Positions 39,656 through 62,342 of a stretch of DNA of 64,000 nt are shown here, in pieces; within the stretch, counting starts at the first letter, position 1; every line of letters starts with the position of its first letter. A program made the translations under genes and the position numbers. The notes beneath the pieces were generated by a model. It did no database searches. It was given only the letters and a program-made list of their open reading frames with translations, and was not told the DNA's origin. This stretch comes from Candidatus Pacearchaeota archaeon (lineage in GTDB: Archaea > Nanobdellota > Nanobdellia > Pacearchaeales > UBA284), in assembly GCA_038894195.1 (NCBI GenBank), contig JAWAPZ010000001.1, positions 129,566 to 193,565 of the forward strand, in the 5' to 3' direction.

Positions 39656-39656
39656 A

Positions 39657-40142: not shown

Positions 40143-40143
40143 G

Positions 40144-45600: not shown

Positions 45601-45651
45601 TTGTATTTTATCACTTTACTTTCTTAAAAGCCAAATTTTCTCAAGTTGTAT

Positions 45652-48600
45652 CTATCTAAATTTTTTAAGAACCTGACCAAGTTTTCTTTCTCTTATTTCT
45701 TTGATTATTAAAAATTTTTTTCTGTAGGACAGTAGGATCACCACTGCAACTATGGCAACAATTATAACAGTCCATGCCAGGATACCCATTCTAAATGCTT
45801 CTTCCTCAAGAGGAATTTCTTCAATCTCTTTGAATTTAGAAATAATCAACGTTACTTTCCCATCTTTTATCTCTTTAATTTTTATTGTTATATCCTCTCT
45901 ACCATCCCTATCAAGATCTATGTTCTTAGCCTCACCAACTTGTATTGTTAAAGTAACCAGTGAATTTATTTCAATAGTTACTTTGTTATTGCCTATATTC
46001 AAAATTTTTATAACGTGTTCTTCACCATTGACAATAAATTGAATGGTTTCCCCCTGGCTCATGTTTATTTCTTTGCTACTTTCTGATAGCTCTCCAATGC
46101 TGTAAGGAGGAACACCCCCCCTTGTATCTTCGGTTGTTACATTTGTTTGGTTAGTTACATTGGTCACATTTTGTTGTGTCGTGCCTCCACCGCCTCTATT
46201 TCCGCCGCCATCTTCTTCCTCCTCAACAATAGATTTTCCAACAATATTTGGTTCTATGCCAGAGAAGTGTGGTATTTTAAACCAAACCATATTATGTGCC
46301 AAATCTTTATAACATAAACCAGTCAAGTTTTCATCACTTTCATTACAAAGCACAGCACTTCCATTAATGTATTCAATATAAATATCAGTTTTGTAATCTT
46401 CATAATCAGTTCCATTTAATTCTTCTATATCCTCACCTTGTTCCCAAATATATTGCCACTCTTCATCATAAAATTTAGTTATATTAACTTTCATGTCCTC
46501 AGATTCATTTATTGCAGAACTGTTATAAGGAACACCTATTATTACATAGTCATATATATTAGGACCCATGCTTCCAAAACGCCAGGCTTCTTTCATCATG
46601 TTGCCACTTGGAGTTTTATTAGCACTTTCATCAAAAATTCCATCTGGCGGCTGACTTGCCAATAAATCAACATTTACATAATGAATGGTTATGTTTGTTG
46701 TGTTCTGTCTCATTTCTAGATCATACTTACCTCCACTTATAACCCATGTAAATGGATTTGGTGGGCCTCCGCCCTGCCCAACGCCTTCTGGCAAGCATCC
46801 TAGATCACCAGGAGTCTCGTTAGGCCATGGCACAGAACAAGAACCATCATCTTTGTATTTAAAGTTTCTAAACTGAACATTTTGTATTTCCTCACCATCT
46901 GGCCTTTTTGCTTTTAATTGCTCAAGTATAAGTTCAAAAGGACTTTCTTGTAAATCTTCTACTTTGATCGTTCTTTTTATTGGAGGAAATTGCGGAGAGA
47001 ATATTCTTATATTAATACTGTCATTTAGTAAAGGAATTTTTATTATATTATTATCTCCAGAATCAGCCATCCAAGAGAAGGAAGCATCTGATCCAGAAAA
47101 TTTAGAGTAATCTACTTCTATTTCTGCATGAACATTTGTAACTCCTGTTTTGTTTCCATCTTCTAACAAACTTGTTATGTTAAATGCAAAGAGGGAAGTA
47201 TTAATTGGTTCGCCTATCTCTCCAACTTTGCTCTCGAGTGTTGCTTCTTCTCCAACCATTGGATAAAGAGTTAAATTTAATTCTGTAGGATTTTCACCAT
47301 AATTTAAAGTAACTGTTTTAAAACCACCATACCATACACCCTCTTTTTTTGCCGAAGCAAATAACAAAATATTGGCTCCATACAGTGCTGCTGGTAGTGT
47401 TATATTGTAGAAGCCAGTTGTTTTATCGAGAACATCTTCAACAGGTGGTTCATCATGCTGTCCTATGTTTTGCGGCATCATTGCACCTAAAAATACCATT
47501 TTTCCTGCTTCAAGCAAAAAGCCAACAACTGTATAATTGTCAAAGTTTTGATTCCCATTAGAACCATTTAATTTTGAAAAACCACTTAACTGAACCAAAT
47601 CTGTTGTCAAGTTTAATTCTGTAAGGTTCAAGTACAGAGCTTGATTTATTGATGTTATTGTTCTATTTTCTACTGTTCCAAGAGAAATATTATTACCATA
47701 AACCAAATTATTTAATTCTATACTAACTGGAAAAGCCGGGCCTCCTTCAGGGTAAATCATAAGAGAGTAATTTCTATCAGCAGGAATATAAACTCTATCA
47801 AAATACTTTAATTCATTAAAACTTTCTTTTATTCCATAACCTAATTTTTTGTCTTTAAACTGATATCTAAAAGCATACTCGTTCGTAAAAAAATTTATGT
47901 TTGTTAAATTTTTATCTGGCGAAGAAGAAGCAATAAAATATCTTGGATTCTCATAAAAAACATCATCAACAAAGCCATTAACAACCAAACCTTCTGTTAA
48001 GTTTACTGGTCTATCACAACTAAAATCTTCACCCATAAAAATTTTGTAAAAAACATATCTTCCTGAATTATTTCCTATTCCAAAGCCACCCCCAGGGTTG
48101 AAAAGCATCTTTCCAACATAACAGTTGGGTGTATAAAAATCTTTATGAAGAGTAAAATTAGGATAATAAATATAAACGTGGCTTTCCCCACTTCCATTTA
48201 GTGCTGAAACAAAAAATTTTCCTTCCTCTCCTGCAAATTCATTAAACGAAATGCCACCAATTTCACTGAATTCTTCTGAAGACAAATCTGTGTAGTTTCC
48301 CTCGTTGCAATCCATTGTTCCCTCACTAACATTTAAAAAACATCTTTGAACTCCTGTCAGATTAATAAAATAAAACACCCATAAACCCTCTTCTACTGGT
48401 CCGTCAGTAAACTCTTTTATGTTTGTTATATTTAAATCGCAAAAAGAATTATTATAATCTAAAGTTTCATTTAAAAAAATAAGACAATCACTCCCATTTA
48501 TATAAGTATATTGTTTTTCTCCAGAATTATTTATTATGGCTAACCCGGTTTTATAATCTTCTGGAAAAGAACCAATATTATTATATTCTATCTTGCTTTC

Positions 48601-49074
48601 ATCTTCTGTCACATACTCTTGACCAATTGCAGAAATATCAATAGTTATGGCCGGCCTTAAATAAAAATAAACTGTTCCTAAGTTGCTTATCTGCTCAGCT
48701 GGAAAATAAGGCAAGTTAGGCCCTATAAATCTTGCATAATTCTCGTTATATTTTATAAGAACTATTTTATACATGAAACTTTCACTTAGGTGTTCCCCGT
48801 CAATTGTTATGTTGAAATATCCACTTCCGTTTGATAAAGTCGAAAGAGTTGCGTTCAGAGAGGGCGGGCCAATCTCGCTTCGTTGATAAATTTCAATAGT
48901 TACATTTGTTTCATTTAAATATTCTTGCCCTCCCTCTTCGATGCCTATTGTATAGCCAGTAATATTGAATGGTGTTAATCCATTAGCAGAAACATTTTGT
49001 GACAATACTGCCAACAATACTAAACATAATAACGAAAAAAAAACTTTGTAGTTCTTTAAAATTATTTTTTTCAT
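45652..49074 (-). CDS. Large secreted cell-surface protein (1140 aa) with signal peptide, Gly/Thr/Gln stalk and C-terminal TM anchor
   Basis: N-terminal signal peptide. Dozens of N-x-S/T sequons. GGGPPNPF and RGGGGTTQQNVTNVTNQTN stalk. C-terminal TM plus basic tail. Confidence 0.55.
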   Translation of the reverse strand: MKKIILKNYKVFFSLLCLVLLAVLSQNVSANGLTPFNITGYTIGIEEGGQEYLNETNVTIEIYQRSEIGPPSLNATLSTLSNGSGYFNITIDGEHLSESFMYKIVLIKYNENYARFIGPNLPYFPAEQISNLGTVYFYLRPAITIDISAIGQEYVTEDESKIEYNNIGSFPEDYKTGLAIINNSGEKQYTYINGSDCLIFLNETLDYNNSFCDLNITNIKEFTDGPVEEGLWVFYFINLTGVQRCFLNVSEGTMDCNEGNYTDLSSEEFSEIGGISFNEFAGEEGKFFVSALNGSGESHVYIYYPNFTLHKDFYTPNCYVGKMLFNPGGGFGIGNNSGRYVFYKIFMGEDFSCDRPVNLTEGLVVNGFVDDVFYENPRYFIASSSPDKNLTNINFFTNEYAFRYQFKDKKLGYGIKESFNELKYFDRVYIPADRNYSLMIYPEGGPAFPVSIELNNLVYGNNISLGTVENRTITSINQALYLNLTELNLTTDLVQLSGFSKLNGSNGNQNFDNYTVVGFLLEAGKMVFLGAMMPQNIGQHDEPPVEDVLDKTTGFYNITLPAALYGANILLFASAKKEGVWYGGFKTVTLNYGENPTELNLTLYPMVGEEATLESKVGEIGEPINTSLFAFNITSLLEDGNKTGVTNVHAEIEVDYSKFSGSDASFSWMADSGDNNIIKIPLLNDSINIRIFSPQFPPIKRTIKVEDLQESPFELILEQLKAKRPDGEEIQNVQFRNFKYKDDGSCSVPWPNETPGDLGCLPEGVGQGGGPPNPFTWVISGGKYDLEMRQNTTNITIHYVNVDLLASQPPDGIFDESANKTPSGNMMKEAWRFGSMGPNIYDYVIIGVPYNSSAINESEDMKVNITKFYDEEWQYIWEQGEDIEELNGTDYEDYKTDIYIEYINGSAVLCNESDENLTGLCYKDLAHNMVWFKIPHFSGIEPNIVGKSIVEEEEDGGGNRGGGGTTQQNVTNVTNQTNVTTEDTRGGVPPYSIGELSESSKEINMSQGETIQFIVNGEEHVIKILNIGNNKVTIEINSLVTLTIQVGEAKNIDLDRDGREDITIKIKEIKDGKVTLIISKFKEIEEIPLEEEAFRMGILAWTVIIVAIVAVVILLSYRKKFLIIKEIRERKLGQVLKKFR

Positions 49075-49218
49075 CTTGCCTCTTTTTTAAAGTTAAGAAA
49101 AAACAGATATATAAATATTTCGTTTATAATTTTGTTCTAACTTCGGGTTTTGATACCAAAGACCATTATTTCTTAGCCATTACTTGAAAATCTATCTCTC
49201 TTAATCTTTTTTTTGTTT

Positions 49219-50892
49219 TTATTTTACTCTAGATTTTCTCCACCAGTAGTGCCTCTTTCTTGCAATTAACATCCATGCAGCAAGAAAAACTACGGCAGCA
49301 GCAAGGATAATTATGACCGCCCATCTAGCATCGAACCATTCAAAACCTATTCTGCATTTTTTTCTTTGCCCTGTTAGATTGTCTGTCTGATCAGTTAGAT
49401 TTCCAGTTAAGTTGCCTGTTACATTTGTTAAATTAGATGAAAATTCTCCTATAGCTTTCAAGAGCAAGTCGATCTTGCTGGTGCTTAGTTTTGTTAAAGT
49501 TACAGAAAAATCATTTATGTTATTCGCGTTTAAATCAAATTCTTTTGTTTCATTAAGTGTAAGAGTTGTTGTTACTGGTTTCGAGTTAATTTCTAAAGTT
49601 GTTGAATTGCTTGTTATATCTTTTACAGTAATTAAATGAGTTTCATTACCAAGAGTAAAGTTAATTTTCTCATCTTTTGCAACATTACTTACAGTTTTGT
49701 TTGTTCCTGTTATATTACCAATATTATGTATTCCTTGGGGAGGTGAATTGCATGTCTTGCTCGTAGAATTGCAACCATAAGTACAATTTTCTATTGTTAC
49801 CCATTCATCATCAATACATTTTTGTAAAGCATCGCCAGAACATCTTTTTGCATTTTCAGTACATGTTGTGCCACCACCACTTGTAGTAGATTTTATAGTT
49901 ATATCCCGAGTTTCAGAGTTATCTGAATTGCCAGCATAGTCATAACACTTAACATACCACTCATATGTTCCTTTTTCAAGCTCGATATCTGAAAATTCTT
50001 GTTGCGTGCCATTTTCTACACTAGCATCAGTATCTTCTAAATCATCGTCTATATACAGAGAACAATTCTTAATACCAAAATTATCTGTAACATTGTACTT
50101 AAAATCTATCGTTGTTGAAGTTGTATTATAATTATCTGCCGGAGATTTTAGATGCACTTCTGGTTTTGTTGTGTCTATTGTTAAAGTTCTATTGCTTGAG
50201 AAATTACAATTTCCTGCAGCATCACAAGCATAACAGTTCCATAAATATCTTGCATTTGCAGTCAAGCTATGGGTAAATGTTGTTGTATTGTTTGTTCCTG
50301 AAACATTACTTGAGTTTTTTTCTTGCCAGCCAGACCAATTGCCATAAAGAGTTATGTTACCTAAATTGTAATTGTCCTGAGCTGTGCAATTAAATGTAAC
50401 ACTTGTACTCGAAAGATTAGCATAAGCAACTGGAGCATTCAATGTCACACTTGGTGCTGTCGTGTCATTTACTTCAAGGTCTAATATAATGTCCCAAGAT
50501 CCTGTTGCATTAGTGATAGTTATTGTTAAATTATAATTACCTGGCTCAGAAACTGTAACATTAAACCAAAAGTATTCTATAGAGTTATTCATAACAAGAC
50601 CTTCTTTTTCCCAGCTTAAAACACTGGATGTGTTAGAAAAATTAGCTTCAGCAACACTGCTACCATTAGAATCTGTAATGAATATAAAACCAGAAGGTAA
50701 AGTTATATTAACTTGGGTTATATTTGATTCTTCTGTCTCATAACTATTGTTTATTGAAATGTTAATTAAAGATGAAACATCTTCTTTAATTGAATTTTCT
50801 TGTAGCTGAGCAGAATAATCGGCAAGAACAAAAAAAGGTAGGATTGCTATAAGAAGCATAACAAAAAAAATTACTATCAAGACTTTCTTCAT
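49219..50892 (-). CDS. Secreted surface protein (557 aa) with the shared NCxxCDxxGNC domain and C-terminal TM anchor
   Basis: Signal peptide. VTFNCTAQDN...ITLYGNWSGW...YLWNCYACDAAGNCNFSSNRTLTID domain. Cys-rich CxxxC segment. C-terminal TM plus RKRHYWWRKSRVK. Confidence 0.55.
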   Translation of the reverse strand: MKKVLIVIFFVMLLIAILPFFVLADYSAQLQENSIKEDVSSLINISINNSYETEESNITQVNITLPSGFIFITDSNGSSVAEANFSNTSSVLSWEKEGLVMNNSIEYFWFNVTVSEPGNYNLTITITNATGSWDIILDLEVNDTTAPSVTLNAPVAYANLSSTSVTFNCTAQDNYNLGNITLYGNWSGWQEKNSSNVSGTNNTTTFTHSLTANARYLWNCYACDAAGNCNFSSNRTLTIDTTKPEVHLKSPADNYNTTSTTIDFKYNVTDNFGIKNCSLYIDDDLEDTDASVENGTQQEFSDIELEKGTYEWYVKCYDYAGNSDNSETRDITIKSTTSGGGTTCTENAKRCSGDALQKCIDDEWVTIENCTYGCNSTSKTCNSPPQGIHNIGNITGTNKTVSNVAKDEKINFTLGNETHLITVKDITSNSTTLEINSKPVTTTLTLNETKEFDLNANNINDFSVTLTKLSTSKIDLLLKAIGEFSSNLTNVTGNLTGNLTDQTDNLTGQRKKCRIGFEWFDARWAVIIILAAAVVFLAAWMLIARKRHYWWRKSRVK

Positions 50893-50954
50893 CTTCCCTC
50901 TTTATTTTTTCTTTGAAAAAATAAGTTAAATGATATTAAAAATCTTTCGTTTTT

Positions 50955-53900
50955 CTATTTTCTCTTTTTCTTTTTGAAAACTGTAAAAAAGATTAAAACA
51001 ATTAAAATTATTGCAACTAAAATTAGTAAAATGTAAAGAAGAGGGAGAGAAATTTTTCTAACAGACTCTTCCCCTAATTTTTCTTCTTTCTTCTCTTCTG
51101 TTTTATTTCCTTCTTTCTTCTCTTCTCTTGTTATTGGTTGCTGTGGCATTGTTACATTTGTTATGTTTGTTACATTTTGTTGTGTTGTTCCTCCACCTCT
51201 ACCGCCACCGCTGCTAGGAGAGTAATACATAGGAGCGAGAATCGCATGATGGGTAATGCTAACGTTTCCAGAATAAACATAATTATGTGCTGTGTTGACT
51301 CCGCTGCTTGCAAGCTCGTTCCAAGAGCCATTATAAGCAAACATTTTCAAGCTAGCTTCATTACTAATTTCCCTTTCATCATAGCTAACATTAAGATAGA
51401 TCCATGAATTTCCTGATGCTGCAATTACATTAACAAATTTACCAATGTTTTCATAGTTCCTTGGATCCGAGGCTGGTGCTATTGTCTTATTTAAAGCAAT
51501 ATTTTCTGACGTAAAACTTACTGTTTCTTCTAAGCCGATATCAAAATAAGAAACTATATTATTTGTAGAGTTTAGTTGAGAAACAAATGCAAAAAGTTGA
51601 TTATTTTTTGACTCGTCATTAATTAAAATGTTGTTATCAGAATCTGATAATATAGTCCCAACCTGATTATTGTTGGTTTTTGATGAAAGAATATAAGTGT
51701 AATGACTTCCTGTCAAAAAGATTCCAAAGCTATTTGAGTTGGCAGTTGTATTAAAGATAACATTTGTTGAAGAGTAAACAACTTCAACACCAAGATAGCC
51801 AGAATCAAAAGAAGAATTCGTTATGTTGTTGTGGTTGGAATCAAAAATAGCCAAACCAAAATAATTACCGGAAGAATTGATTAGATCAAAAGTTGTATTT
51901 TCAGTTGCTAAAACAAGCAAGCCATTGTTGTCAATACTCTCAGAGCCAGCAATGGTTATGTTCTTAAGTGAAGAATTATCGGCATTGCATAAAATTAATT
52001 CTGAGAGAGTTTCATTTTCTAAGGTTACGCTAGAATTATAGAATTTTATTTCTCTGTCGCCAGAACCGGTGTTATTCTCTATAAGATTATTGCAATTTTC
52101 CTCTAAAGAAGCATAACCCATCAAATCAAACAAGTTGTTTTCTCTTATCATATTATTAATAATAACATTGTTTTGACCGTCTTCAAGATAAAGGCCATAA
52201 AGGTTATATTCAAAAATGCTATCATTAATATTATTGCCATTAGAATCTTCTAAATAAATTCCATAATAATTTCCAGAAGAATTAACCAAACTAAAATTAG
52301 AATAATCTGTATAATAGACAAATATGCCATTGTTTTGCAAGTAATCAGAACCGATAACAGTTACATTATAAATTGAAGAGCTATCTGCGTTACATAAAAT
52401 AAGTTCAGAAAAAATTTCGTCGCTTAAGTTAACACTTTCGTTATAGAAAGCAATAGCTCTTCCATCAGAACCAATAACATCTTCAATAAAGATATGATCA
52501 CAACCAGAATCTGATAAGCTATTAAACCCTACATCTTGCTGTAAGTTATCTTGAACATTACAATTGCTTATGTTTATACTTAGCTCGCCAGTGTCGGGAA
52601 GATCGTAAACGTAAATGCCTGTACTAAAATTAGAAATTGTCAAATTAAAAATAGTTATATTTCCACTTTGAGAAGTGTTTATTCCGTAACCTGTGCTATT
52701 GCCAGTAATGCTATAGTTAGCTCCGTCAATCACTACGTTATCTGAACCAATTGTGAAGCAAGTTCCATTGCTCTGTAAGTTTCCATTTAAAGTGCATGAT
52801 TCATAAATTCTATCGCCACATGTATAAATCATGCCGCTTTCTGCAACACAGCCATAAGGAATTGTTAAAGTTCTATTGCTTGAAGCAAAAACACAATTTC
52901 CAGCAGCATCACATGCCTGACAATTCCAAACATAGGTTCCTGAATCAAGAATTTTTTCAAAAATTACTGGTGTTGCATTTTCTGGCGAGCTATTGGTTTC
53001 ATTAGCGTGCCAGCCACCAGACCAATTGCCGTAAAGAGTTACATTTGTCAAATTTACATTATCAGAAGCAGAACAATTAAATGTAATATTTCTTAAGTTT
53101 GAAGTAAAGTTATCTTCTGGTTCGTTCAAACTAACTTCTGGCTCTCCATAATCTAAAGTAAAGGTCTTCGTTGCAGATGTATTAACTATACCAAAATCTT
53201 CTTCCCAACACTGAATTTTCCAGTTGTAAATTCCTTTTTCACTAAGAATGTATGTTATTATAGTAAGTGTATTATTTTCTGCAATAGTTGTATTAACAAC
53301 AGTATTGTTTATTATTAAATCGCAATTAGCGTTTGTTGCATTTTTATTTATCGTTGTAAAATTAAAAGTTATTAAAGAATCATTTGTTATATAATTATCC
53401 TCTGGAAAGTTTAGTAAGATGCTCGGCTTAAAGTTCGGCGCATTGACTGTATGCGGATAATTAATTTCATCAGTTACATTACATTCATTAAAACCCAACT
53501 TGAAGTAACCATTTTCTCCCCAACCTGTGCCCCAGCTGTTTTTTATTATCCAGTAACTTGTTTCATCATTTCCAGTATCATTATAGCCTACAATTAGTAC
53601 AGCGTGATTGGCATAATCATCATCGGTGCATCTTTCGATACGGCCATCACCAACTAGGTCATCTGCATTAATTGCTGTAGCCAAGGGCCCATAATCAATA
53701 AGTAATTGCTCTACTTGTTTATTTGTTAACCCACTTGGCCATAACCACGTGTAATCATTTATTTTCCATAATCTCTGTGAGTAACTTGAGCATCTATTTG
53801 AGCATATTGTATCAGAGCAGTTTCCACTAGTGTTATAAGTGCAACTTAAAATCGAGCCACAATAATAAAAGCAATCACAACCTGAACCATCAACGTAATT

Positions 53901-54677: not shown

Positions 54678-54698
54678 CTCTTTTTTATTAAAAAATGA

Positions 54699-54983
54699 TT
54701 AAGGTTTTTTAAATTTTTCTCCAGGTTTACATTCTCCTTGATAGTATGACCATTCCTCACACTCACTACCATCAGGAAAGATGCATACACCGTATTGGCC
54801 TTGCTCATTTTCTCTTATTTCAAGAGTACCATTATGTTCTATGCAATAGACGCTCGCTGGATTTGGTATTGACTGGTTTGATTGATTTTTTTCTTTGTCC
54901 TTGCTTTCAGGAAATTTGATTATCGTAACTAAAACAAGGGCAAAAATCAGTAATATGCACACAAAAACAAAAATTTTTTTCAT
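54699..54983 (-). CDS. DUF333 ('putative hemolysin') domain protein, 94 aa
   Basis: NPASVYCIEHNGTLEIRENEQGQYGVCIFPDGSECEEWSYYQGEC matches the DUF333 consensus. N-terminal TM or signal segment. Confidence 0.6.
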   Translation of the reverse strand: MKKIFVFVCILLIFALVLVTIIKFPESKDKEKNQSNQSIPNPASVYCIEHNGTLEIRENEQGQYGVCIFPDGSECEEWSYYQGECKPGEKFKKP

Positions 54984-55021
54984 TTGATCTTTTTTTAATT
55001 AATTGTCTTATTTTTACTTTT

Positions 55022-56647: not shown

Positions 56648-56731
56648 AAAAAAATTATATAAATAAAGTATTTAAAATTAGTGATTATAAATAAAACAGA
56701 AAAATAGAGGTGTCCAAAAAGGTAATTAAAA

Positions 56732-57337
56732 TTACTTTTTCTTGCCCATCTCTCTTTCTTCTTTCTTTTCCTCTCTTCTAGTCTCTTTTTTCTTTCTTGT
56801 TAGAAGCCAGATTATAAAAATGATTACAATGATTACTATAGTTATCACCACAATTAGCAATGTAGGGAATTTCTTTTCTTGAACAGGAGCTGGTTGAGTT
56901 GGAGTTTTAATTATAACAGGAAAGTATTTTTCAATGCTTGTACCTACTTCTACCCCTCCTGTTCTGCTTGGCTTGATTGTTGTAAAAGCAACCCCTATTG
57001 TATACTCTTTGCCTTCAGGCGCGCTAGTTGGAATTATTATTCTTATATTGACTGTAACATTTTTAACTCCAAGAGGTACATAATACTCTTTATTTGGATC
57101 TATTATCTCGGCTATTTCTGTTCCATTTATTATTTCGGCCCTGACTCTTAGGTTTTCATTTCCAACCATGTTCTGCAGTTGTAGAGTAACTGTTGCAATT
57201 TCTCCTGGAGCCAATTCAAGAGGCCTTTCTTTCCAGTAAGGTGACGTAATTCCAAAAGCACTTACATTTGATAAAGTAAGGATCACTATAGCTACTAACA
57301 TTCCGAAAGTCAAGTTTATTCTTACTAAGTTTTTCAT
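56732..57337 (-). CDS. Small surface protein (201 aa), signal peptide, C-terminal TM, Lys/Glu-rich tail
   Basis: MKNLVRINLTFGMLVAIVILTLSNVSA signal. C-terminal TM plus KKKETRREEKKEEREMGKKK. Confidence 0.45.
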   Translation of the reverse strand: MKNLVRINLTFGMLVAIVILTLSNVSAFGITSPYWKERPLELAPGEIATVTLQLQNMVGNENLRVRAEIINGTEIAEIIDPNKEYYVPLGVKNVTVNIRIIIPTSAPEGKEYTIGVAFTTIKPSRTGGVEVGTSIEKYFPVIIKTPTQPAPVQEKKFPTLLIVVITIVIIVIIFIIWLLTRKKKETRREEKKEEREMGKKK

Positions 57338-57416
57338 TTCATTTACCTCTTTTGCTTATTGTCTTTAATTATTTTTAATTTTTATATTTTTTGTTTTTAA
57401 TTCCTTTTTCAGTTGT

Positions 57417-60167
57417 TTATGATAATATTTTAATTATCCAAGAGCCCAGGGTACTTGTCGAATAAGTTTGTGAAATTAAACTGCTTGGAGCTTCTCTTAA
57501 ACAGTAATACAATTGTTCTTGACCTTGGCCAGCTGAATTGTTTCCAGCAGGCAAGCTAGCTCCTGCAATGCCAACAAAAGTATTGTTCTGTAGTGCAGTA
57601 CCATCACACTCTATTGGTGGCGAGCCACCTGTTTCTATGTCTACTGTAAAGTTTTCTGCTGGTATGTAATAAGCATTGTTTGTTTCACCAATAAGATCTA
57701 AACCCTTGACCTGAATTGTGCTTATGTCGGCATTTCCAGTATTGTTAAGCAGAGAAGGATCGTTGTTTGATGTTACATTTTCAGAACCAGGAGCTGTTGT
57801 AGGGAAACTTATAAGTACTGGCGAAAGAACAAATGCTGCTGTTTCTAGAAGTAAAAAACTCTCATTATAAGGTTGAGAAATCAAGCCATCTGTATCATTT
57901 GCTGTTGCATTTACTTGCCATGTTCCTGCTTTATCCCAATACCAGATGCCTATTGTACAAGAATAATTCGCTTGAGTTGCATTTATCGCATTGACAAAAA
58001 CACAGCTTGAATTGTATCTTAAATCCTCGCCTTCAAGATAGAAAGTTGCATTCACTGTATCTATAGTTTCATAACCTTGAGCATCTGAAACATTAACATA
58101 GAATGTAACATATGTGACACTTGCTTCTGTTATACTTTGATCTGGAATAGCTGATATATCGTCGATTGTTGGTGCTTGAGCTGCTACTATCACACTAACT
58201 TCCAAAGGTCCAAGAATTTCTTCACCAAGATTGCCAGCAGAATCATTTGCATATGTATAATTAATATAAAAAGTTCCAGGAGTTGAGCCAACATTTATTT
58301 CAACACCATAATTATTATCTCCTGGAGCGCCATCACAAGATGTTTCCCCATTATCAGACATTTCTGTTACAGCTGAATAATTTAATTCAGTTCCATTTGG
58401 GTATGTTATATAAACCCAGACTTTATTTATGCCAGAACCCTCTCCAACTTCCTGAACATTTGCATTAACACAGACAAATTCATTTGTATAAACACTACTA
58501 GCATTAACTTGTGTTCCTGAAACATCTGGCGGTTGTGTATCAACTGTAAAACTATAATTGCTTGCAGAAAAATTGCAATTACCTGACGTATCACAAGAGT
58601 AACAATTGTAAACATATTTGCCGTCACTTAAAGTATTTTGCCACTGACTTGAGTTGCTTGTGCCCGAAATGCTTGATGAATTTTTTGCACCCCAACCAGA
58701 CCAATCTCCATATAAAGTAATATTTTTTAACTGAACAGCATCTTCTGCAGAGCAATTAAAAGTTACCAAACTACCTTGAAATGAGTTATTTTGAGGCAAA
58801 TTCAGTGTTACTTCAGGAGCTGTCTTATCAGAAACAAATTTTTCAAAAACAAACTGAAATTGCTCATAAGTTGCTACAGAAGTTAATGCAACAGCATTTG
58901 CTACCTCAACAGCAGTGCAGGTTGTTGTAGTGCAAGAAGTTATTCCTTTATAAACTGCAAGATTCGCTGTCTGATCGCGCATCAAAGCAAAGATTCTTGA
59001 GCTATTGTCTGGATCATAATCCATATTAATCCAAGAACCATCTGTTCCGATGTCTGTTGTTCCCCATGGCGCAGCTATTAAACTAGACCAAGTACCAGCA
59101 GCACAATTTGCAGCAGAAGTGCATTGATAACCAGAAAAATAGTCTACATTGCTATCATCAACTCCAACAAGAAAACCACCCGTAGCTTGAACAGGAGCAA
59201 TATCCATATGCCTCCAAGTAGTTACTGTTTCTATACTTGTATCAACACCTTTCACAGTTCCCCATGAATTGCCATTCCATTCTTGACAAAACAAGTCATT
59301 GGCTGTATAAACTTCAACGCACATCATTATTCTGTCTGTTCCAGGATAATTAACTGTTCTAATCCAATAATTGGTTGCTGAACCAGTAGAACCAGCCGTT
59401 CCAGGAGTGCCCCAAGACCCCGTGCTGCTATAAGTTATATACTCCGGGGTTGCTAAAGCACCATCGACCCATACAATCAAAGCATCTCCAGATGCTTCAT
59501 AAGCAACATCAAATGTCTGAACTGTAGCGACTTCAGAATTAGTTTCAAGTTCTTTAACAGAAAGAAAAGAAGTGCCGTTCCAAGGAATTGCAACTATTCT
59601 TCTATCAGCGTCCATTGCAACAAGCATCATTTGATTACTATCACTTCTTGCCTCAAGTCTTATCCAATTTACTAAGCCAGAACCGCCTGTTGAAATTGTT
59701 TGCTCTGCACTCCAGCTCTGGCCGTTCCAAATTTTGTAGCCAATATAACCAGCTGTTCCATTTCCATATGCTACCATAACTTTACCGCTCAAAGACATAA
59801 TGCCTATATCAAAACAACGATAAGCATTTGTTGAAGCACTTGCTGTCATCTCTACTGGCAAACTCCAACCGCTTCCATTCCATATTTGTACATCAATATC
59901 AGAATCTGCATCAAGTGTCGCAAGAACTGTTTCATTTCTTGCAGGATTTGCTTTTAGTTCAAGCCATCTAATTGTATTGCCAACTGGATTCGCGCTAGCC
60001 AAAGAACTCCAAGCGCTACCGTTCCATATCATGTACTTTGGTGTAGCGCTTTGATTTTGTGTAACCAACAAACCTCTTGTTGCTGAAACGTTTTTTATTG
60101 ATAAAAAGAAGATAAATACGAACAAAAGTAATACAACCGATAATTTTTTATTAAATGTTTTTTTCAT
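57417..60167 (-). CDS. Large secreted surface protein (916 aa) with the shared NCxxCDxxGNC domain
   Basis: Signal peptide. VTFNCSAEDAVQLKNITLYGDWSGW...YNCYSCDTSGNCNFSASN. Many sequons. 4-nt gap to the upstream gene suggests co-transcription. Confidence 0.55.
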   Translation of the reverse strand: MKKTFNKKLSVVLLLFVFIFFLSIKNVSATRGLLVTQNQSATPKYMIWNGSAWSSLASANPVGNTIRWLELKANPARNETVLATLDADSDIDVQIWNGSGWSLPVEMTASASTNAYRCFDIGIMSLSGKVMVAYGNGTAGYIGYKIWNGQSWSAEQTISTGGSGLVNWIRLEARSDSNQMMLVAMDADRRIVAIPWNGTSFLSVKELETNSEVATVQTFDVAYEASGDALIVWVDGALATPEYITYSSTGSWGTPGTAGSTGSATNYWIRTVNYPGTDRIMMCVEVYTANDLFCQEWNGNSWGTVKGVDTSIETVTTWRHMDIAPVQATGGFLVGVDDSNVDYFSGYQCTSAANCAAGTWSSLIAAPWGTTDIGTDGSWINMDYDPDNSSRIFALMRDQTANLAVYKGITSCTTTTCTAVEVANAVALTSVATYEQFQFVFEKFVSDKTAPEVTLNLPQNNSFQGSLVTFNCSAEDAVQLKNITLYGDWSGWGAKNSSSISGTSNSSQWQNTLSDGKYVYNCYSCDTSGNCNFSASNYSFTVDTQPPDVSGTQVNASSVYTNEFVCVNANVQEVGEGSGINKVWVYITYPNGTELNYSAVTEMSDNGETSCDGAPGDNNYGVEINVGSTPGTFYINYTYANDSAGNLGEEILGPLEVSVIVAAQAPTIDDISAIPDQSITEASVTYVTFYVNVSDAQGYETIDTVNATFYLEGEDLRYNSSCVFVNAINATQANYSCTIGIWYWDKAGTWQVNATANDTDGLISQPYNESFLLLETAAFVLSPVLISFPTTAPGSENVTSNNDPSLLNNTGNADISTIQVKGLDLIGETNNAYYIPAENFTVDIETGGSPPIECDGTALQNNTFVGIAGASLPAGNNSAGQGQEQLYYCLREAPSSLISQTYSTSTLGSWIIKILS

Positions 60168-60170
60168 TTT

Positions 60171-62342
60171 TTATGAAATTTTTTCTAAAGAAAAATTAGT
60201 TATGAGCACATAACCAAAATAATCTTCAATGCCTTCAGATCTAAAGCCGATAAGTGCTTTGGTAGAATTTTTTGGCAACTCTAATTCGATAGTAATTTTT
60301 TTCCATAGACCCGAGTCAGAAACACTGAATTTTCTTTTTTCTTTTTGTGTATGGTCAGCCTCCCATACTTCATCATTATTCCAGACTAAAGGAGGATATG
60401 TTTCTATTTCTTTATTGCTGCTATCTAAAATGTCTATTATGATAGAAAACCCGTTATCTTTATTTCCTATAATCTGCAGCTCGGGTCTTACATAAAAACT
60501 TATTCTGTATTTGCCTTCTTCAACATCAAAAACAGAACTTATGCCAATGTTGTCTTTTGTTTCTGCAACATGAGAAAGATTGTAAAGCAAAGCGTTTCCG
60601 CATTCGACTTGAACAAGATTTGCTGTATTTTTTACTTTTTTTGAATGCTCATCGTCTTTCAGCTCAAGGCTATTTTTTTCTTTCAAAAACCATTTACCAG
60701 GAAGCTTTATATCTTCTTTTCTTGGCTCATCAAAAAGACAAGTAAAATTAATTTCAACTACACTAATAAAAATTTCATTACTCTCGACAGTAAAATTTCC
60801 GTCGCTTGCATAAAATTTTAAAGTTTTATTACCCACAAAATCTTTTTCAGGAACTAAAGTAACATAAGAATCTTTTATGATCACACTTATGTTTTCTGGA
60901 TGTGTTGAGCTAAAAGTTAAAAAATCGTTGTCAGGATCTTTAAAATAGGCAGCAAGATCTAAATTTATGTTCGAGTTTTTCAAAATCGTGATGTTTGGAA
61001 TTGGATTTAACAAAATCGGAGGATTGTTTGTAACATTTACTACTTTTATTGTAAATTGATTGCCCTCTACACTTAAATTACCGTCAGAAGCAGAAACAAT
61101 CAACTTCTCATAGCCTACATCATAAGCACTTACAAAAAAAATCTCTTCGTTAATAGTGATGTTTGTTAAATTTTCGTTTTCAAGAACTTTGTAGTAAAAA
61201 ATTAAAGCATCGCCATCTGGATCTGAAAAGTATTCTGAAAGATTTAGCATGAAAGAAGAATTAACCAAAATTTCTTGATCTGGAATTTCTTTCTTAAGTT
61301 TTGGTGCTCGATTCTTGCTTTCTATTGGCAAGATTGTATAAGTTATTGAATCAAGATGCAAGAAAGCATCTTGAATTTCTATACGCAGAATATAACTTTT
61401 GTCAGTTAAATTTAAATCTCTAAGATCACAGGTTTCAATACATACTTGAGAAAAATCAATTTCGTAAGTTATTATTTCTTCTGGCAAAGATTCAACTGGT
61501 TCTTCCTCTTCTTCTGTAATATTTTCTTCTGTTAAATTCTCCTCAGAAACTTTTTCTTCTGGTTTTTCTTGTGTTGGTTCATTCACCTCTGGTTCACTTT
61601 GTTCTGGTTCTGAAGGTGTTTCAGAAGAATGTTCTACTAGTTCTGGCGATGATGGAGTTTCTTCAGTAATTTCACTTCCTTCACCTTCAACAGCCAAGCC
61701 TGTTATTAAATTTCGTGATGCTTGAGAAGATTTAGTTTCAAGTTTTGAGCTGTCAAGAATTAATTTATCTTGAAAATAAATTTTTACAGAACCCTGGTCA
61801 ATCAAAGTCAATTTTCCTGAAACTTTTAAACCGGTTAACTGACCATAATTTTCAGGATGCCATTCATATTCTTGTGAAGCATTAAACTCAAGAAGCAAGT
61901 TATCTTGATAGGTTTTTTCTTGCGGTGCTATAATAAAACCAGTTAATTTCGCTATTTCTGTTCTGAAAAAAAATAGCACGAAAAAAATAAAAAAGAGCAA
62001 GAAAAAAATAGATGCCAGCCTAAAACTCTTTCTAACTTTCTTTTTCCTTTTTTCTTGTTCTTCTCTTCTTAAAGCATAAATTTCTTCAGTCAAGACTTGA
62101 ATTTCTTTTTTTAATTTTTCTATCTCCTTGTCTATTTTTTTAAGAAAAGTTTCAAGAGTTTCATCAATAAATGAGAGTCTTTTTCTGTATTCATAATAAC
62201 TTATCACTCCAAGCTTGTATTTTTGTTCAGTAGCCTGAAAAAAATTAACAACTTTTTTCTTTTTAAGTTCAAGTTTTTCTATCTCTTTTTCTGTATCTAT
62301 CAACCTACGAAGCTTATTTCTGATTTGTCCTTCTAATTTCAT
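60171..62342 (-). CDS. Type-II membrane protein: cytoplasmic coiled-coil, TM, acidic Glu/Pro linker, cadherin-like (DPDGD) repeats
   Basis: N-terminal heptad-rich 100 aa. TM IFFLLFFIFFVLFFF. EPEQSEPEVNEPTQEKPEE linker. DPDGDALIFYY and DPDNDFLTFSS cadherin-like motifs. Confidence 0.5.
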   Translation of the reverse strand: MKLEGQIRNKLRRLIDTEKEIEKLELKKKKVVNFFQATEQKYKLGVISYYEYRKRLSFIDETLETFLKKIDKEIEKLKKEIQVLTEEIYALRREEQEKRKKKVRKSFRLASIFFLLFFIFFVLFFFRTEIAKLTGFIIAPQEKTYQDNLLLEFNASQEYEWHPENYGQLTGLKVSGKLTLIDQGSVKIYFQDKLILDSSKLETKSSQASRNLITGLAVEGEGSEITEETPSSPELVEHSSETPSEPEQSEPEVNEPTQEKPEEKVSEENLTEENITEEEEEPVESLPEEIITYEIDFSQVCIETCDLRDLNLTDKSYILRIEIQDAFLHLDSITYTILPIESKNRAPKLKKEIPDQEILVNSSFMLNLSEYFSDPDGDALIFYYKVLENENLTNITINEEIFFVSAYDVGYEKLIVSASDGNLSVEGNQFTIKVVNVTNNPPILLNPIPNITILKNSNINLDLAAYFKDPDNDFLTFSSTHPENISVIIKDSYVTLVPEKDFVGNKTLKFYASDGNFTVESNEIFISVVEINFTCLFDEPRKEDIKLPGKWFLKEKNSLELKDDEHSKKVKNTANLVQVECGNALLYNLSHVAETKDNIGISSVFDVEEGKYRISFYVRPELQIIGNKDNGFSIIIDILDSSNKEIETYPPLVWNNDEVWEADHTQKEKRKFSVSDSGLWKKITIELELPKNSTKALIGFRSEGIEDYFGYVLITNFSLEKIS

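What the first reader, a model, noticed from the sequence alone, without database searches (positions are those of the whole stretch)
45652..62342. 16.7-kb minus-strand island of eight secreted, C-terminally anchored, sequon-rich surface proteins
Every gene in the island has an N-terminal signal peptide or anchor and a C-terminal TM helix plus basic tail. The proteins are saturated with N-x-S/T glycosylation sequons. Three proteins (557, 1240 and 916 aa) share a ~90-aa module: VTFNC(S/T)AxDN..L.NITLYGNWSGW..Y.WNCxxCD(A/T)(A/S)GNC.F(S/A)S.N. Two share a GGGTTQQNVTN(V/I)TN stalk. Gaps of only 4-22 nt suggest operon-like transcription. In a small-genome, possibly episymbiotic archaeon, such an island is a prime candidate for host attachment or host-surface remodelling. 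The shared Cys-pair module appears to be an uncharacterised domain.
Basis: partly seen in the sequence, partly recalled or inferred. Interest (0 to 1): 0.7.

Follow-up and report, generated by a model that had tools for sequence, protein, structure and literature searches.

The report
Archaeal surface glycoprotein and protease gene cluster
This is a chromosomal cluster of eight genes for sugar-coated cell-surface proteins of a tiny (Pacearchaeota/DPANN) archaeon, built around a membrane-tethered papain-like protease and Ig-like spacer domains; it is a well-made example of something already described for such archaea, not a new kind of system.

Summary
The eight minus-strand ORFs are real, and all are predicted exported or membrane proteins. 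N-x-S/T sequons are strongly enriched: 222 in 5,412 aa, against 58-92 for out-of-register controls. Three details of the observation are wrong. Only 5 of 8 proteins have a C-terminal TM helix plus basic tail. The intergenic gaps are 3-144 nt, not 4-22. The shared "Cys-pair module" is not an uncharacterised domain. It is an Ig-like beta-sandwich (AF2 pLDDT 95) of the Pfam Big_7/Big_13 type, with an Ig-style strand B-F cysteine pair and an optional hairpin pair. It occurs in over 12,000 representative proteins, mostly giant multi-copy surface proteins. The closest relative, a Pacearchaeota MAG, keeps only three of the genes in synteny: a small DUF333 protein, a DUF333-papain protease-Ig-beta-helix protein, and an Ig stalk protein. 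The other five genes are absent there. A more distant relative holds a subtilase and a separate beta-helix protein in the same slot beside the S-layer gene. Best reading: an envelope locus with a conserved tethered-protease core plus lineage-specific binding proteins. Whether these proteins act on a host cell remains untested. Comparable proteins are already described in the cultivated DPANN archaeon Nanobdella. This is a new member of a known kind, of modest interest.

The parts
60171..62342 (-). p723. Predicted type II membrane protein with a charged coiled-coil-like N-terminus (aa 1-105) and a TM helix at aa 107-125. An acidic E/P/S-rich linker follows, then two cadherin-like/Big_9 domains (aa ~330-535; nt 60738-61355) and an unassigned C-terminal domain. 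No C-terminal anchor. Accessory gene, absent from the syntenic locus of the closest relative.
   Evidence: Pfam Big_9 1.2e-9 and Cadherin_5 1.3e-6; NCBIfam tandem-95 repeat 1.6e-9. Its N-terminal ectodomain is 46-58% identical to the start of a 4,368-aa protein, P0063. Absent in L001.
57417..60167 (-). p916. Signal peptide, then an N-terminal beta-propeller of 7-8 blades with a repeated W-N-G-x-x-W motif (aa 29-444; nt 58836-60083). The Cys-containing Ig module follows (aa 442-545; nt 58533-58844), then further beta-rich regions. No membrane anchor. Its start lies 3 nt after the p723 stop. Accessory gene.
56732..57337 (-). p201. Signal peptide, one small domain that looks beta-rich by eye (not tested), a Pro-rich linker, a C-terminal TM helix (aa 160-178) and a K/E-rich tail. 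Accessory gene.
   Evidence: No specific Pfam or NCBIfam family; only TM-driven noise. No homologue in L001.
55022..56647 (-). p541. Signal peptide, a Big_7 Ig domain (aa 46-107), an unassigned region, a Gly5 linker, an ASH/Cep192/PapD-like Ig domain (aa ~297-378), a C-terminal TM helix (aa 513-531) and a basic tail. Accessory gene.
   Evidence: Pfam Big_7 1.7e-5, Cep192_D3 2e-4, ASH 2.7e-3. Its pieces recur inside giant proteins P0034 and P0078. Absent in L001.
54699..54983 (-). p94. Small exported protein made of one DUF333 domain (aa 39-83) after an N-terminal hydrophobic segment. Core gene, lying 21 nt upstream of the protease gene.
   Evidence: Pfam DUF333 4.7e-22. 67% identical orthologue in the same position in L001. 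The same small-DUF333 plus protease pairing occurs in L013 and in 11 of 80 metagenome loci.
50955..54677 (-). p1240, the core protease. Signal peptide, then DUF333 (aa 25-70; nt 54468-54605), then a papain-family C1 peptidase (aa 173-408; nt 53454-54161) with Gln183, Cys189, His358 and Asn380. Two Ig modules follow, the second being the Cys module (aa 507-610; nt 52848-53159). Then come a parallel beta-helix (aa ~620-1100; nt 51378-52820), a Gly/N-x-T stalk containing GGGTTQQNVTN (nt 51165-51197), a K/E linker, a TM helix (aa 1213-1231) and a basic tail.
   Evidence: Pfam Peptidase_C1 5.4e-37, DUF333 1.4e-18, NosD 1.9e-7, Beta_helix 6.9e-6. TIGR03804 para_beta_helix. PDB matches to cruzain and cathepsin L/S/K at 1e-22. 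Catalytic residues invariant in A7. 74% identical orthologue in L001.
49219..50892 (-). p557, the core Ig stalk protein. Signal peptide, an Ig-like N-terminal domain, the Cys Ig module (aa 143-245; nt 50158-50466), a Big_7/Big_13 Ig domain (aa 244-333) and a small Cys-rich knot. Then come an unannotated ~90-aa pre-anchor domain (aa 384-483; nt 49444-49743), an N-L-T-G repeat stalk, a TM helix (aa 525-543) and a basic tail.
   Evidence: Pfam Big_7 1.1e-6, Big_13 4.1e-6. Module model pLDDT 95.3. 80% identical orthologue in L001. Pre-anchor domain.
45652..49074 (-). p1140. Signal peptide and a ~950-aa sequon-rich ectodomain (49 sequons) with no family assignment. Then an acidic/Gly stalk with GGGTTQQNVTN (nt 46159-46191), the same pre-anchor domain as p557 (aa 989-1083; nt 45826-46110), a TM helix (aa 1097-1115) and a basic tail. 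Accessory gene; the closest relative has an unrelated 198-aa ORF at this position.
   Evidence: No Pfam, NCBIfam or PDB match. 30% identity over 600 aa to part of a 3,142-aa Nanoarchaeota protein in L003, where the region is followed directly by the Cys Ig module. Replaced in L001.
45403..45601 (+). Boundary feature, not part of the cluster. A tRNA-Ser(UGA) gene is interrupted by a ~115-nt insert that holds a 3 x 35-nt tandem repeat (45471-45575). Synteny with the closest relative breaks here.
   Evidence: ARAGORN calls tRNA-Ser(tga) only after the insert is removed in silico. The partial tRNA hit in Rfam is not significant on its own (E 0.29, 17.9 bits against a gathering score of 29).
62479..62839 (+). 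Boundary feature, not part of the cluster. An archaeal RNase P RNA gene lies just upstream of p723. In the closest relative it sits ~140 nt from the p94 orthologue.
   Evidence: Rfam RF00373 82.1 bits (gathering score 84), E 5e-23; synteny.

Best explanation
The region is an ordinary chromosomal envelope locus of a Pacearchaeota-like (DPANN) archaeon. It lies beside the S-layer-like gene and a set of pilin-like genes, and it encodes N-glycosylated cell-surface proteins.

**Two layers**
1. A conserved core of three genes:
   - p94, a small exported DUF333 protein;
   - p1240, a membrane-tethered papain-family cysteine protease that also carries a DUF333 domain, Ig spacers and a parallel beta-helix;
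   - p557, an Ig stalk protein.
2. Lineage-specific accessory genes (p723, p916, p201, p541, p1140). These carry putative binding heads (cadherin-like, beta-propeller, unassigned) on the same kinds of spacers.

**Proposed mechanism**
- Shown by sequence or model:
  - Each protein has an N-terminal signal peptide or signal anchor.
  - Five have a C-terminal TM helix with a basic, presumably cytoplasmic, tail.
  - The protease has a complete Gln-Cys-His-Asn catalytic set.
  - The shared module is an Ig-like beta-sandwich.
- Inferred:
  - Export is by Sec, and the sequons are N-glycosylated by AglB.
  - The Ig modules, stiffened by a strand B-F disulfide, an F-G hairpin disulfide and glycans, act as spacers. 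Together with Gly/N-x-T stalks and a ~90-aa pre-anchor domain, they hold the protease, beta-helix and binding heads away from the membrane, at or beyond the S-layer.
  - The tethered protease cleaves external proteins.
  - p94 and the N-terminal DUF333 domain act as a pro-region, partner or regulator of the protease.
- Not resolved: whether the targets are host-cell surfaces or free substrates.
For: **Export, anchoring and sequons**
-.

**Protease**
- Peptidase_C1 5.4e-37.
- Cruzain and cathepsin matches at 1e-22.
- Q183, C189, H358 and N380 are invariant.
- Beta-helix.

**Module is Ig-like**
- pLDDT 95.3, nine strands.
- Foldseek matches to E-set, FN3-like, BIg, PKD and CARDB domains at TM 0.7-0.76.
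- 22 of 36 modules hit Big_7 and 8 hit Big_13.
- The cysteines vary as pairs: CCCC 16, CCxx 15, xxxx 3, xxCC 1, one exception.
- The module is a mass-produced spacer: 12,477 / 5,311 / 876 representative proteins at E<=1e-3 / 1e-10 / 1e-30. Top hits are 1-7.7 kaa long with up to 46 copies.
- Carrier proteins in 35 genomes are sequon-rich, often with a signal peptide and in some cases a C-terminal TM helix.

**Core versus accessory**
- L001 shares only p94, p1240 and p557, at 67, 74 and 80% aa identity. The S-layer-like protein is 50% identical and the flanking membrane proteins 47-55%.
- The small-DUF333 plus protease pairing recurs in L013 and in 11 of 80 metagenome loci.
- P0114 has the same DUF333-C1-Ig architecture.

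**Same slot, analogous content, in a more distant relative**
- L002 has a beta-helix protein, a Peptidase_S8 protease carrying the module and the pre-anchor domain, and a p557-like protein. These lie next to the f242, f217 and S-layer homologues.

**Precedent**
- Nanobdella aerobiophila has surface proteins with 14-52 N-glycosylation sites, Ig-like folds and, for the peptidase-like set, a C-terminal TM helix. They carry peptidase-like or pectin-lyase-like heads (bioRxiv 10.1101/2023.10.27.564410).
Against: - No expression, localisation or glycosylation data exist.
- AglB is not in the window, so glycosylation rests on sequon statistics alone.
- Three of the eight proteins lack the anchor.
- The ectodomain of p1140 and parts of p541, p723 and p916 have no assignment.
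- The role proposed for DUF333 is pure inference; no solved structure or described function was found.
- The pairing with a small DUF333 gene holds for only a minority (11 of 80) of DUF333-C1 protease loci.
- The spacer role of the Ig modules rests on analogy with bacterial fibrillar adhesins.
- The disulfides are assumed to form outside the cell of a probably anaerobic organism.
Confidence: 0.6

Rival explanations
1. This is a dedicated host-interaction island. The proteins exist to attach the episymbiont to its host. They would breach or remodel the host S-layer or glycocalyx using the protease and the beta-helix, while the propeller and cadherin-like heads recognise the host surface.
For: - The lineage is DPANN.
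- The accessory genes vary between close relatives, as expected for host-specific recognition.
- The protease class differs between relatives in the same slot.
- Foldseek places the p916 propeller nearest to bacterial host-binding lectins.
- The same speculation has been made for analogous Nanobdella proteins.
Against: - Nothing in the sequence identifies a host or a ligand.
- The core genes are more conserved (74-80% aa) than the S-layer-like protein (50%). That points to a housekeeping envelope role rather than an arms-race role.
- Not all Pacearchaeota are shown to be episymbionts (own knowledge).
- DUF333-C1 proteases are very common in sediment metagenomes, with more than 458 relatives.
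Confidence: 0.25
2. These are structural cell-wall components. The C-terminally anchored Ig-rich glycoproteins would be S-layer anchoring or pedestal proteins (SlaB-like), or a second wall layer. The protease would be a maturation or turnover enzyme for the organism's own envelope.
For: - The locus lies next to the S-layer-like gene (41491-43755) and pilin-like genes.
- The anchored architecture, with a conserved membrane-proximal pre-anchor domain, recurs across many proteins.
- The core is highly conserved.
- In Nanobdella, comparable C-terminally anchored Ig proteins were proposed as SlaB-like anchors.
Against: - The domain content of the eight proteins is heterogeneous, and five of them are dispensable in a close relative.
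- There is no sequence match to S-layer families in the island proteins.
- The likely S-layer candidates lie elsewhere in the window: S_layer_C at 41491-43755 and PACE-CTERM-PROT at 23528-25087.
Confidence: 0.1
3. This is a horizontally acquired mobile island, inserted beside a tRNA gene and the RNase P RNA gene.
For: - The accessory blocks abut a tRNA-Ser gene and the RNase P RNA gene, and synteny breaks exactly there.
- The p916 region has a higher GC content (0.383 against ~0.32).
- The p1240-p557 DNA is more similar to the relative (83%) than the flanks are (64-76%).
Against: - No integrase, transposase or other mobility domain occurs in any of the eight ORFs.
- No flanking direct or inverted repeats were found.
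- GC elsewhere equals the genome background.
- There is no plasmid match and only four weak module hits on viral contigs.
- The raised GC in p916 parallels its Ala/Gly/Thr-rich composition, as it does in the S-layer gene.
Confidence: 0.05

Closest known systems
[quoted passage not shown]
   Same: Both sets have a signal peptide, many N-glycosylation sequons (14-52), several Ig-like folds and, for the peptidase-like set, a C-terminal TM helix. Both carry a peptidase or a parallel beta-helix head, and both were proposed to act at the symbiont surface.
   Different: - The peptidase class differs (papain C1 here, thermopsin there).
- Here the protease and the beta-helix are fused in one chain and preceded by DUF333.
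- No sequence homology was tested.
- The Nanobdella genes are not described as a cluster.
Pfam Big_7 (PF17957) / Big_13 (PF19077) bacterial Ig-like domains, as used in fibrillar adhesins (e.g. the SiiE BIg domains)
   Same: The fold is the same beta-sandwich. The motif pattern is shared (P-x-V...T-F...D..G-N...T-I-D). The domain is used in tandem as a stalk in giant surface proteins.
   Different: - The window's three modules score just below the Pfam threshold when tested alone (21.5 against 24.1 bits).
- They carry a strand B-F Cys pair plus a C-x5-C hairpin pair and several sequons.
- The carriers named by the source records are mainly archaeal (DPANN and Methanosarcinales-labelled MAGs).
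Papain-family (MEROPS C1A) peptidases such as cruzain and cathepsin L
   Same: The catalytic domain matches at 1e-22 to 1e-37, with intact Gln, Cys, His and Asn residues and the Q-G-S-C-G-S-C-W-A-F and N-S-W-G-x-x-W-G motifs.
   Different: - No I29 propeptide is detected. A DUF333 domain and an ~80-aa linker sit in its place.
- The protease carries a C-terminal extension of ~830 aa (Ig modules, beta-helix, stalk, TM anchor).
- A separate small DUF333 gene lies directly upstream.
Seven-bladed PLL/PHL propeller lectins of Photorhabdus (PMC5584973)
   Same: The p916 N-terminal domain is a predicted beta-propeller of four-stranded blades with Trp-rich repeats. It gives the best Foldseek hits at E 6e-10. 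In PHL, fucose sits between blades on two Trp residues.
   Different: - Identity is only 12-16%, and p916 probably has 8 blades over 416 aa.
- Binding-site residues were not compared. This is a fold resemblance only.
Staphopain/staphostatin-type gene pairs, a cysteine protease with an adjacent cognate inhibitor (recalled from memory, not tested)
   Same: A papain-like protease gene sits next to a small gene that recurs with it in independent loci.
   Different: - Staphostatins are cytoplasmic lipocalin-like proteins encoded downstream.
- p94 is exported, lies upstream, and shares its domain with the protease itself.
- No inhibitory activity is known for DUF333.

Membership tests
Pfam Big_7/Big_13 Ig-like domains (E-set clan) | HMM score at or above the curated threshold | tested here: inconclusive
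   - The p557 module alone scores Big_7 21.5 bits (E 3.7e-4) against a cut-off of 24.1, and Big_13 17 bits.
- Whole p557 passes both thresholds (29.7 and 27.6 bits), but mainly through the neighbouring domain.
- 22 of 36 orthologous modules hit Big_7 and 8 hit Big_13 at E<=0.01.
- Giant proteins found with the module profile score Big_13 up to 1.8e-20.
Pfam Big_7/Big_13 Ig-like domains (E-set clan) | Ig-like beta-sandwich fold | tested here: met
   - AF2 pLDDT 95.3, nine beta-strands.
- Foldseek PDB hits to the sulfite oxidase E-set domain, CbhA FN3-like modules, SiiE BIg, PKD and CARDB at TM 0.7-0.76.
Papain-family cysteine peptidase (Pfam Peptidase_C1, MEROPS C1) | HMM above threshold and homology to solved C1 enzymes | tested here: met
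   128.4 bits against a cut-off of 20.7. 176 PDB sequences at E<=1e-3, the best being cruzain-type enzymes at 1.2e-22.
Papain-family cysteine peptidase (Pfam Peptidase_C1, MEROPS C1) | Catalytic Cys-His dyad with the Gln oxyanion-hole residue and the Asn | tested here: met
   Q183, C189, H358 and N380 sit in the canonical motifs and are invariant across four family members.
Papain-family cysteine peptidase (Pfam Peptidase_C1, MEROPS C1) | N-terminal I29-type inhibitory propeptide (typical of C1A zymogens) | tested here: not met
   No Inhibitor_I29 hit at E<=0.1. DUF333 and a linker occupy the position.
Archaeosortase-processed surface glycoproteins (PGF-CTERM and related sorting signals) | A recognisable C-terminal sorting motif ahead of the TM helix | tested here: not met
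   NCBIfam scan of the five C-termini at E<=10 gave no sorting-domain hit near threshold. The best was CGP-CTERM at 11.5 bits against a cut-off of 21. The tails look like plain TM helices followed by a basic stretch.
N-glycosylated archaeal surface proteins | Excess of N-x-S/T sequons in exported proteins | tested here: met
   z = 2.6-12.1 against shuffles. 222 in-register sites against 58-92 out-of-register. Proteins with no predicted membrane or signal segment have 0-1.1 per 100 aa.
N-glycosylated archaeal surface proteins | Presence of the oligosaccharyltransferase AglB and actual glycan attachment | not testable with these tools
   No AglB-sized candidate lies in the 64-kb window. The rest of the genome is not available.
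PLL-family beta-propeller lectins | Seven-bladed W-motif propeller with inter-blade Trp sugar sites; sequence-level homology | tested here: inconclusive
Mobile genomic island | Integrase or transposase, flanking repeats, atypical composition | tested here: not met
   - No mobility domains.
- No flanking repeats.
- GC 0.31-0.34, except in p916.
- No plasmid match.
- Adjacency to tRNA-Ser and the RNase P RNA gene is the only positive sign.
Single operon | Short or overlapping junctions throughout, with no internal promoters or terminators | tested here: not met
   The gaps are 3-144 nt. T-runs and TATA-like boxes occur in the 62-, 84- and 144-nt gaps. Transcripts were not available.

The most novel reading that the evidence does not exclude
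The conserved pairing of a small exported DUF333 protein with a DUF333-fronted, membrane-tethered papain-like protease may reveal a previously unrecognised pro-domain or inhibitor (or docking) system for archaeal surface proteases. DUF333 would stand in for the missing I29 propeptide. The slot beside the S-layer gene would then be a swappable "surface protease plus beta-helix" module: C1 in this lineage, subtilase in a relative. DPANN archaea would use it to open up host envelopes.
Probability: 0.15. Interest if true: 0.6.

Novelty: new member of a known kind. Interest (0 to 1): 0.3.

Why it matters
How DPANN archaea hold on to and feed from other cells is still an open question, and their surface proteins are the obvious candidates.

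This locus gives a concrete parts list for that question:
- a tethered, apparently active papain-like protease with a beta-helix;
- a recurrent small DUF333 partner gene;
- a disulfide-braced Ig spacer used thousands of times across uncultured archaea;
- an unannotated membrane-proximal pre-anchor domain.

It also shows that the genomic slot beside the S-layer gene keeps the same kind of content while the actual genes are exchanged between lineages.

None of this changes the current picture. It supplies testable candidates, not a new principle.

Tried and rejected
- **Word-indexed protein searches with the module.** These returned only 3 and 8 short fragments, which wrongly suggested rarity. 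The exhaustive HMMER search corrected this.
- **First metagenome scan with the whole p1240 protein.** It found nothing. The alignment-based rescan found more than 458 relatives.
- **p1140.** No match in Pfam, NCBIfam or PDB, even when split into pieces or approached through its L003 homologue. Its ectodomain remains unassigned.
- **DUF333.** No solved structure. The literature search returned mostly unrelated DUF333x families.
- **C-terminal sorting signals.** None recognised.
- **Mobile-element signs.** No flanking repeats, no plasmid match, four weak viral hits.
- **afdb50 fold library.** Unavailable.
- **Recent gene conversion between module copies.** Rejected: DNA identity is only 74-82% over ~75 nt.

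Full report
**1. What is in the sequence**

Eight ORFs lie head to tail on the minus strand between 45652 and 62342. In order of transcription they are p723, p916, p201, p541, p94, p1240, p557 and p1140.

- Seven begin with a Lys-rich n-region and a hydrophobic h-region. Four of them end the signal with N-V-S-A or V-S-A.
- p723 instead has a 105-residue charged N-terminus followed by a TM helix at 107-125, so it is a signal anchor.
- A C-terminal TM helix followed by a basic tail is present in p1140, p557, p1240, p541 and p201. It is absent from p94, p916 and p723.
- The intergenic gaps are 3, 79, 84, 38, 21, 62 and 144 nt.
- The longer gaps contain T-runs and TATA-like boxes. Examples are tttatata about 35 nt before the p1140 start, and a T-run followed by tttatttatata before p541.
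- Only p723/p916 and p94/p1240 (and perhaps p541/p94) look translationally or transcriptionally coupled.

**2. Sequons**

- The eight proteins hold 222 N-x-S/T sites in 5,412 residues, or 2.0-7.0 per 100 aa.
- Composition-preserving shuffles give z-scores of 2.6 to 12.1.
- Proteins elsewhere in the window with no predicted membrane or signal segment have 0-1.1 per 100 aa and z near 0.
- The enrichment is specific to the register. S/T-x-N occurs 92 times, N-S/T 69 times and N-x-x-S/T 58 times.
- The S-layer-like protein at 41491-43755 has only 5 sequons in 754 aa.
- The statistics support selection for N-glycosylation. The transferase AglB is not in the window, so actual glycosylation is inferred.

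**3. The shared module**

- The three copies (p557 aa 143-245, p1240 aa 507-610, p916 aa 442-545) are about 44-53% identical, with BLASTP E-values of 3e-19 to 3e-24.
- They align along their full length with neighbouring cysteine-free Ig domains of the same proteins.
- Pfam detects Big_7 in all three proteins and Big_13 in p557.
- Tested alone, the p557 module scores Big_7 at 21.5 bits (E 3.7e-4), just under the 24.1-bit cut-off.
- Of 36 orthologous modules, 22 hit Big_7 and 8 hit Big_13 at E<=0.01.
- AlphaFold2 gives a nine-strand all-beta model with mean pLDDT 95.3.
- The closest solved folds are E-set/Ig-like sandwiches at TM 0.70-0.76. They include the sulfite oxidase C-terminal domain, CbhA FN3-like modules, SiiE BIg, PKD and CARDB.
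- Across the 36 modules, the first two cysteines (strand B "FNC" and strand F "WNC") and the last two ("C-D-x-x-G-N-C" around the F-G hairpin) are gained or lost as pairs. The counts are CCCC 16, CCxx 15, xxxx 3, xxCC 1, with one exception.
- That pattern fits a classical Ig core disulfide plus an optional hairpin disulfide. One of the two scan patterns required the first cysteine, so its high frequency is partly a selection effect.
- An exhaustive HMMER search found 12,477 representative proteins at E<=1e-3, 5,311 at 1e-10 and 876 at 1e-30. The best hits are 1,000-7,700 residues long with up to 46 copies.
- Sampled hits combine the module with Big_13, Big_7, PKD, fn3, Laminin_G_3, PQQ propellers and, in P0114, DUF333 plus Peptidase_C1.
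- In one-genome-per-species contigs the module occurs in 35 loci. Most are from Pacearchaeota, Woesearchaeota, Nanoarchaeota and Aenigmatarchaeota MAGs, with some labelled Methanosarcinales.
- The carrier proteins are 190 to more than 5,100 aa long and have 2.5-8.7 sequons per 100 aa.
- The module is therefore a common, recognisable Ig-like spacer and not an uncharacterised domain.

**4. The other parts**

- **p1240.** The domain order is signal peptide, DUF333 (1.4e-18), an ~80-aa linker, a papain-family peptidase (5.4e-37), two Ig modules, a parallel beta-helix (NosD 1.9e-7, Beta_helix 6.9e-6, TIGR03804), a Gly/N-x-T stalk, a K/E linker, a TM helix and a basic tail.
  - Gln183, Cys189, His358 and Asn380 are intact and invariant in relatives.
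  - Cruzain and cathepsins L/S/K match at about 1e-22.
  - No I29 propeptide is detected.
- **p94.** A single exported DUF333 domain (4.7e-22).
- **p557.** Ig-like domains, a small Cys-rich knot, and a ~90-aa domain just before the anchor.
- **The pre-anchor domain.**
  - It is also present in p1140 (30% identity, E 5e-10).
  - A profile of it finds the domain in P0114, in the L001 orthologue, and in 14 further surface proteins from other loci and from the representative set. In every case it sits about 60-190 residues from the C-terminus.
  - It has no Pfam match.
- **p916.**
  - It starts with a ~416-aa domain of W-N-G-x-x-W repeats. The domain has 19 homologues without any Pfam annotation.
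  - It is predicted as a beta-propeller (pLDDT 86, pTM 0.90).
  - Foldseek ranks Photorhabdus PLL/PHL lectins first (E 6e-10).
  - A lectin function is therefore only a hypothesis.
- **p723.** It has cadherin-like/Big_9 domains and resembles the N-terminal end of a 4,368-aa protein.
- **p541.** It has Big_7 and ASH/PapD-like Ig domains.
- **p201 and the ~950-aa ectodomain of p1140.** Both remain unassigned.
- **The GGGTTQQNVTN stalk motif.**
  - The p1240 orthologue in the closest relative has a different stalk, GGGAGGGAGGGA...NQTNITNIT.

**5. Organism and neighbourhood**

- The window is archaeal chromosome. It carries an intron-containing tRNA, FttA, archaeal-type PheRS, exosome and proteasome genes, PFOR and archaeal RNase P RNA.
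- The best related locus, L001, comes from a Candidatus Pacearchaeota MAG (JAWANM010000001). It is collinear with the window over about 20 kb, and its proteasome alpha subunit is 86% identical.
- The cluster lies in an envelope region. Upstream of its 3' end are four small proteins with class-III-like signal peptides, an S-layer-like protein, and two single-pass membrane proteins, f217 and f242.
- Another anchored CARDB-type protein at 23528-25087 matches NCBIfam PACE-CTERM-PROT, "putative S-layer protein", at 4.7e-63.

**6. Comparative genomics**

- In L001 only p94, p1240 and p557 are present, in the same order and position. Their aa identities are 67, 74 and 80%.
- The 7.3-kb block p723-p916-p201-p541 is absent there. 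About 140 nt separate the RNase P RNA gene from the p94 orthologue.
- p1140 is replaced by an unrelated 198-aa ORF with no obvious signal peptide or TM helix.
- The core genes are more conserved than the S-layer-like protein (50%), f217, f242 and f129 (47-55%), and the pilin-like proteins (62-68%).
- At the DNA level, the p1240-p557 segment is 83% identical, against 64-76% for the flanks.
- In L002, a more distant relative that keeps the f242, f217 and S-layer neighbours, the slot holds three genes:
  - a 414-aa NosD/beta-helix protein;
  - a 1,142-aa Peptidase_S8 protease carrying the Ig module, the pre-anchor domain and a C-terminal TM helix;
  - a 592-aa p557-like protein.
- The kind of content is therefore kept (protease, beta-helix, Ig stalk protein) while the protease family is exchanged.
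- The small-DUF333 plus DUF333-C1-protease pair also occurs in another Pacearchaeota MAG, L013/P0114.
- It occurs in 11 of 80 metagenome loci that carry DUF333-C1 proteases. More than 458 such relatives exist in total.

**7. Mobility**

- None of the eight ORFs has a mobility domain.
- No flanking direct or inverted repeats stand out.
- GC matches the background except in p916.
- There is no plasmid match and only four weak module hits on viral contigs.
- The variable blocks do abut RNA genes (tRNA-Ser and RNase P RNA). This may make these positions recombination-prone, but it is not evidence for a mobile element.

**8. Interpretation**

- The most economical reading is an envelope locus with two layers: a conserved tethered-protease core and lineage-specific accessory surface proteins.
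- The proteins are built from a common kit: signal peptide, head domain, Ig spacers, glycosylated Gly/N-x-T stalk, pre-anchor domain, TM helix and basic tail.
- Export, anchoring topology, catalytic competence and the Ig fold are read from sequence or from confident models.
- Glycosylation, disulfide formation, the spacer function, the role of DUF333, and the nature of the targets are all inferred.
It is the usual speculation for such proteins.
[quoted passage not shown] The peptidase-like set also has a C-terminal TM helix. They were interpreted in the same way (bioRxiv 10.1101/2023.10.27.564410).
- Nothing here distinguishes host surfaces from free substrates. The high conservation of the core argues against a fast-evolving recognition role for those three genes.

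**9. Verdict**

- The finding is a new member of a known kind.
- The pieces that could repay follow-up are:
  - the recurrent DUF333 partner of the protease;
  - the unannotated pre-anchor domain;
  - the non-orthologous protease replacement in a conserved slot.
- Interest is 0.3.

Noticed in passing
window 45403-45601 (+): A tRNA-Ser(UGA) gene is split in or near the T-loop by a ~115-nt insert. The insert contains a perfect 3 x 35-nt tandem repeat (45471-45575), and each unit carries an AAGGAA/TTCCTT palindrome. ARAGORN and Rfam (gathering threshold) missed the gene. ARAGORN calls it only after the insert is removed in silico. The orthologous region in L001 (~11981-12085) appears, by eye, to have only a ~13-nt insert. 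Whether the insert is a spliceable intron with a bulge-helix-bulge motif was not checked.
   Followed up: partly
window 62479-62839 (+): An archaeal RNase P RNA gene scores 82.1 bits, just under the Rfam gathering score of 84 (E 5e-23). It is therefore invisible at default thresholds.
   Followed up: yes
It is a ~90-aa domain just before the C-terminal anchor in p557 and p1140, with no Pfam match. It recurs near the C-terminus of at least 16 other large surface proteins from related MAGs and metagenomes. It is a candidate membrane-proximal pedestal domain.
   Followed up: partly
L002 6353-12972 (Woesearchaeota-labelled MAG CAYGZP010000001): The slot syntenic to the window's cluster, next to the f242, f217 and S-layer homologues, holds a separate beta-helix protein, a subtilase (Peptidase_S8) with the same Ig module and pre-anchor domain, and a p557-like protein. 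This is a non-orthologous replacement of the surface protease.
   Followed up: partly
window 49498-53593 versus L001 6852-10963: The p1240-p557 segment is 83% identical at the DNA level to the Pacearchaeota relative. Flanking genes, including proteasome alpha, are 64-76% identical. This points to unusually strong constraint or to a recent exchange of the segment. It remains unexplained.
   Followed up: no
window 41491-43755 (+): The S-layer-like protein (S_layer_C, 2.7e-5) has only 5 sequons in 754 aa, with no enrichment over shuffles. This contrasts sharply with the island proteins. Its region also shows raised GC (0.385).
   Followed up: no
window 38203-40644 (+): Four consecutive small proteins (176, 311, 183 and 166 aa) have short charged N-termini followed by a hydrophobic helix, like class III (type IV pilin-like) signal peptides. 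They contain several cysteines and have no Pfam match. They are conserved in L001 at 62-68% identity.
   Followed up: no
window 23528-25087 (-): Another protein with a signal peptide and a C-terminal TM helix (CARDB/Ig-like) lies outside the island. It matches NCBIfam NF033506 PACE-CTERM-PROT, "putative S-layer protein", at 4.7e-63. This supports the Pacearchaeota assignment and shows that such proteins are not confined to the island.
   Followed up: no
window 15325-15440 (-): A 116-nt tRNA hit in Rfam (57.8 bits) was not reported by ARAGORN. It is presumably an intron-containing archaeal tRNA.
   Followed up: no
window 58001-60000: GC is 0.383 in the p916 region, against ~0.32 for its neighbours. 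By eye p916 is Ala/Gly/Thr/Ser-rich and Lys/Glu-poor compared with the other island proteins. This could reflect composition or a foreign origin.
   Followed up: no
L013 4307-7948: The 1,213-aa ORF looks like elongation factor 2 and, by eye, contains a large insertion resembling an intein. It begins with C-I-S-G-D and ends near V-I-H-N-T. It lies just upstream of the DUF333/protease pair in this Pacearchaeota MAG. No domain search was run on it.
   Followed up: no
L036-L038 (contexts of P0162, a p916-propeller homologue): The propeller-protein homologue is preceded by a 45-49-aa ORF. Further upstream lie a KaiC-like ATPase, a hemerythrin, dCache and histidine-kinase genes and (in L037) response-regulator genes. 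A protein of more than 1,000 aa follows it. This context is quite different from the one in the window.
   Followed up: no
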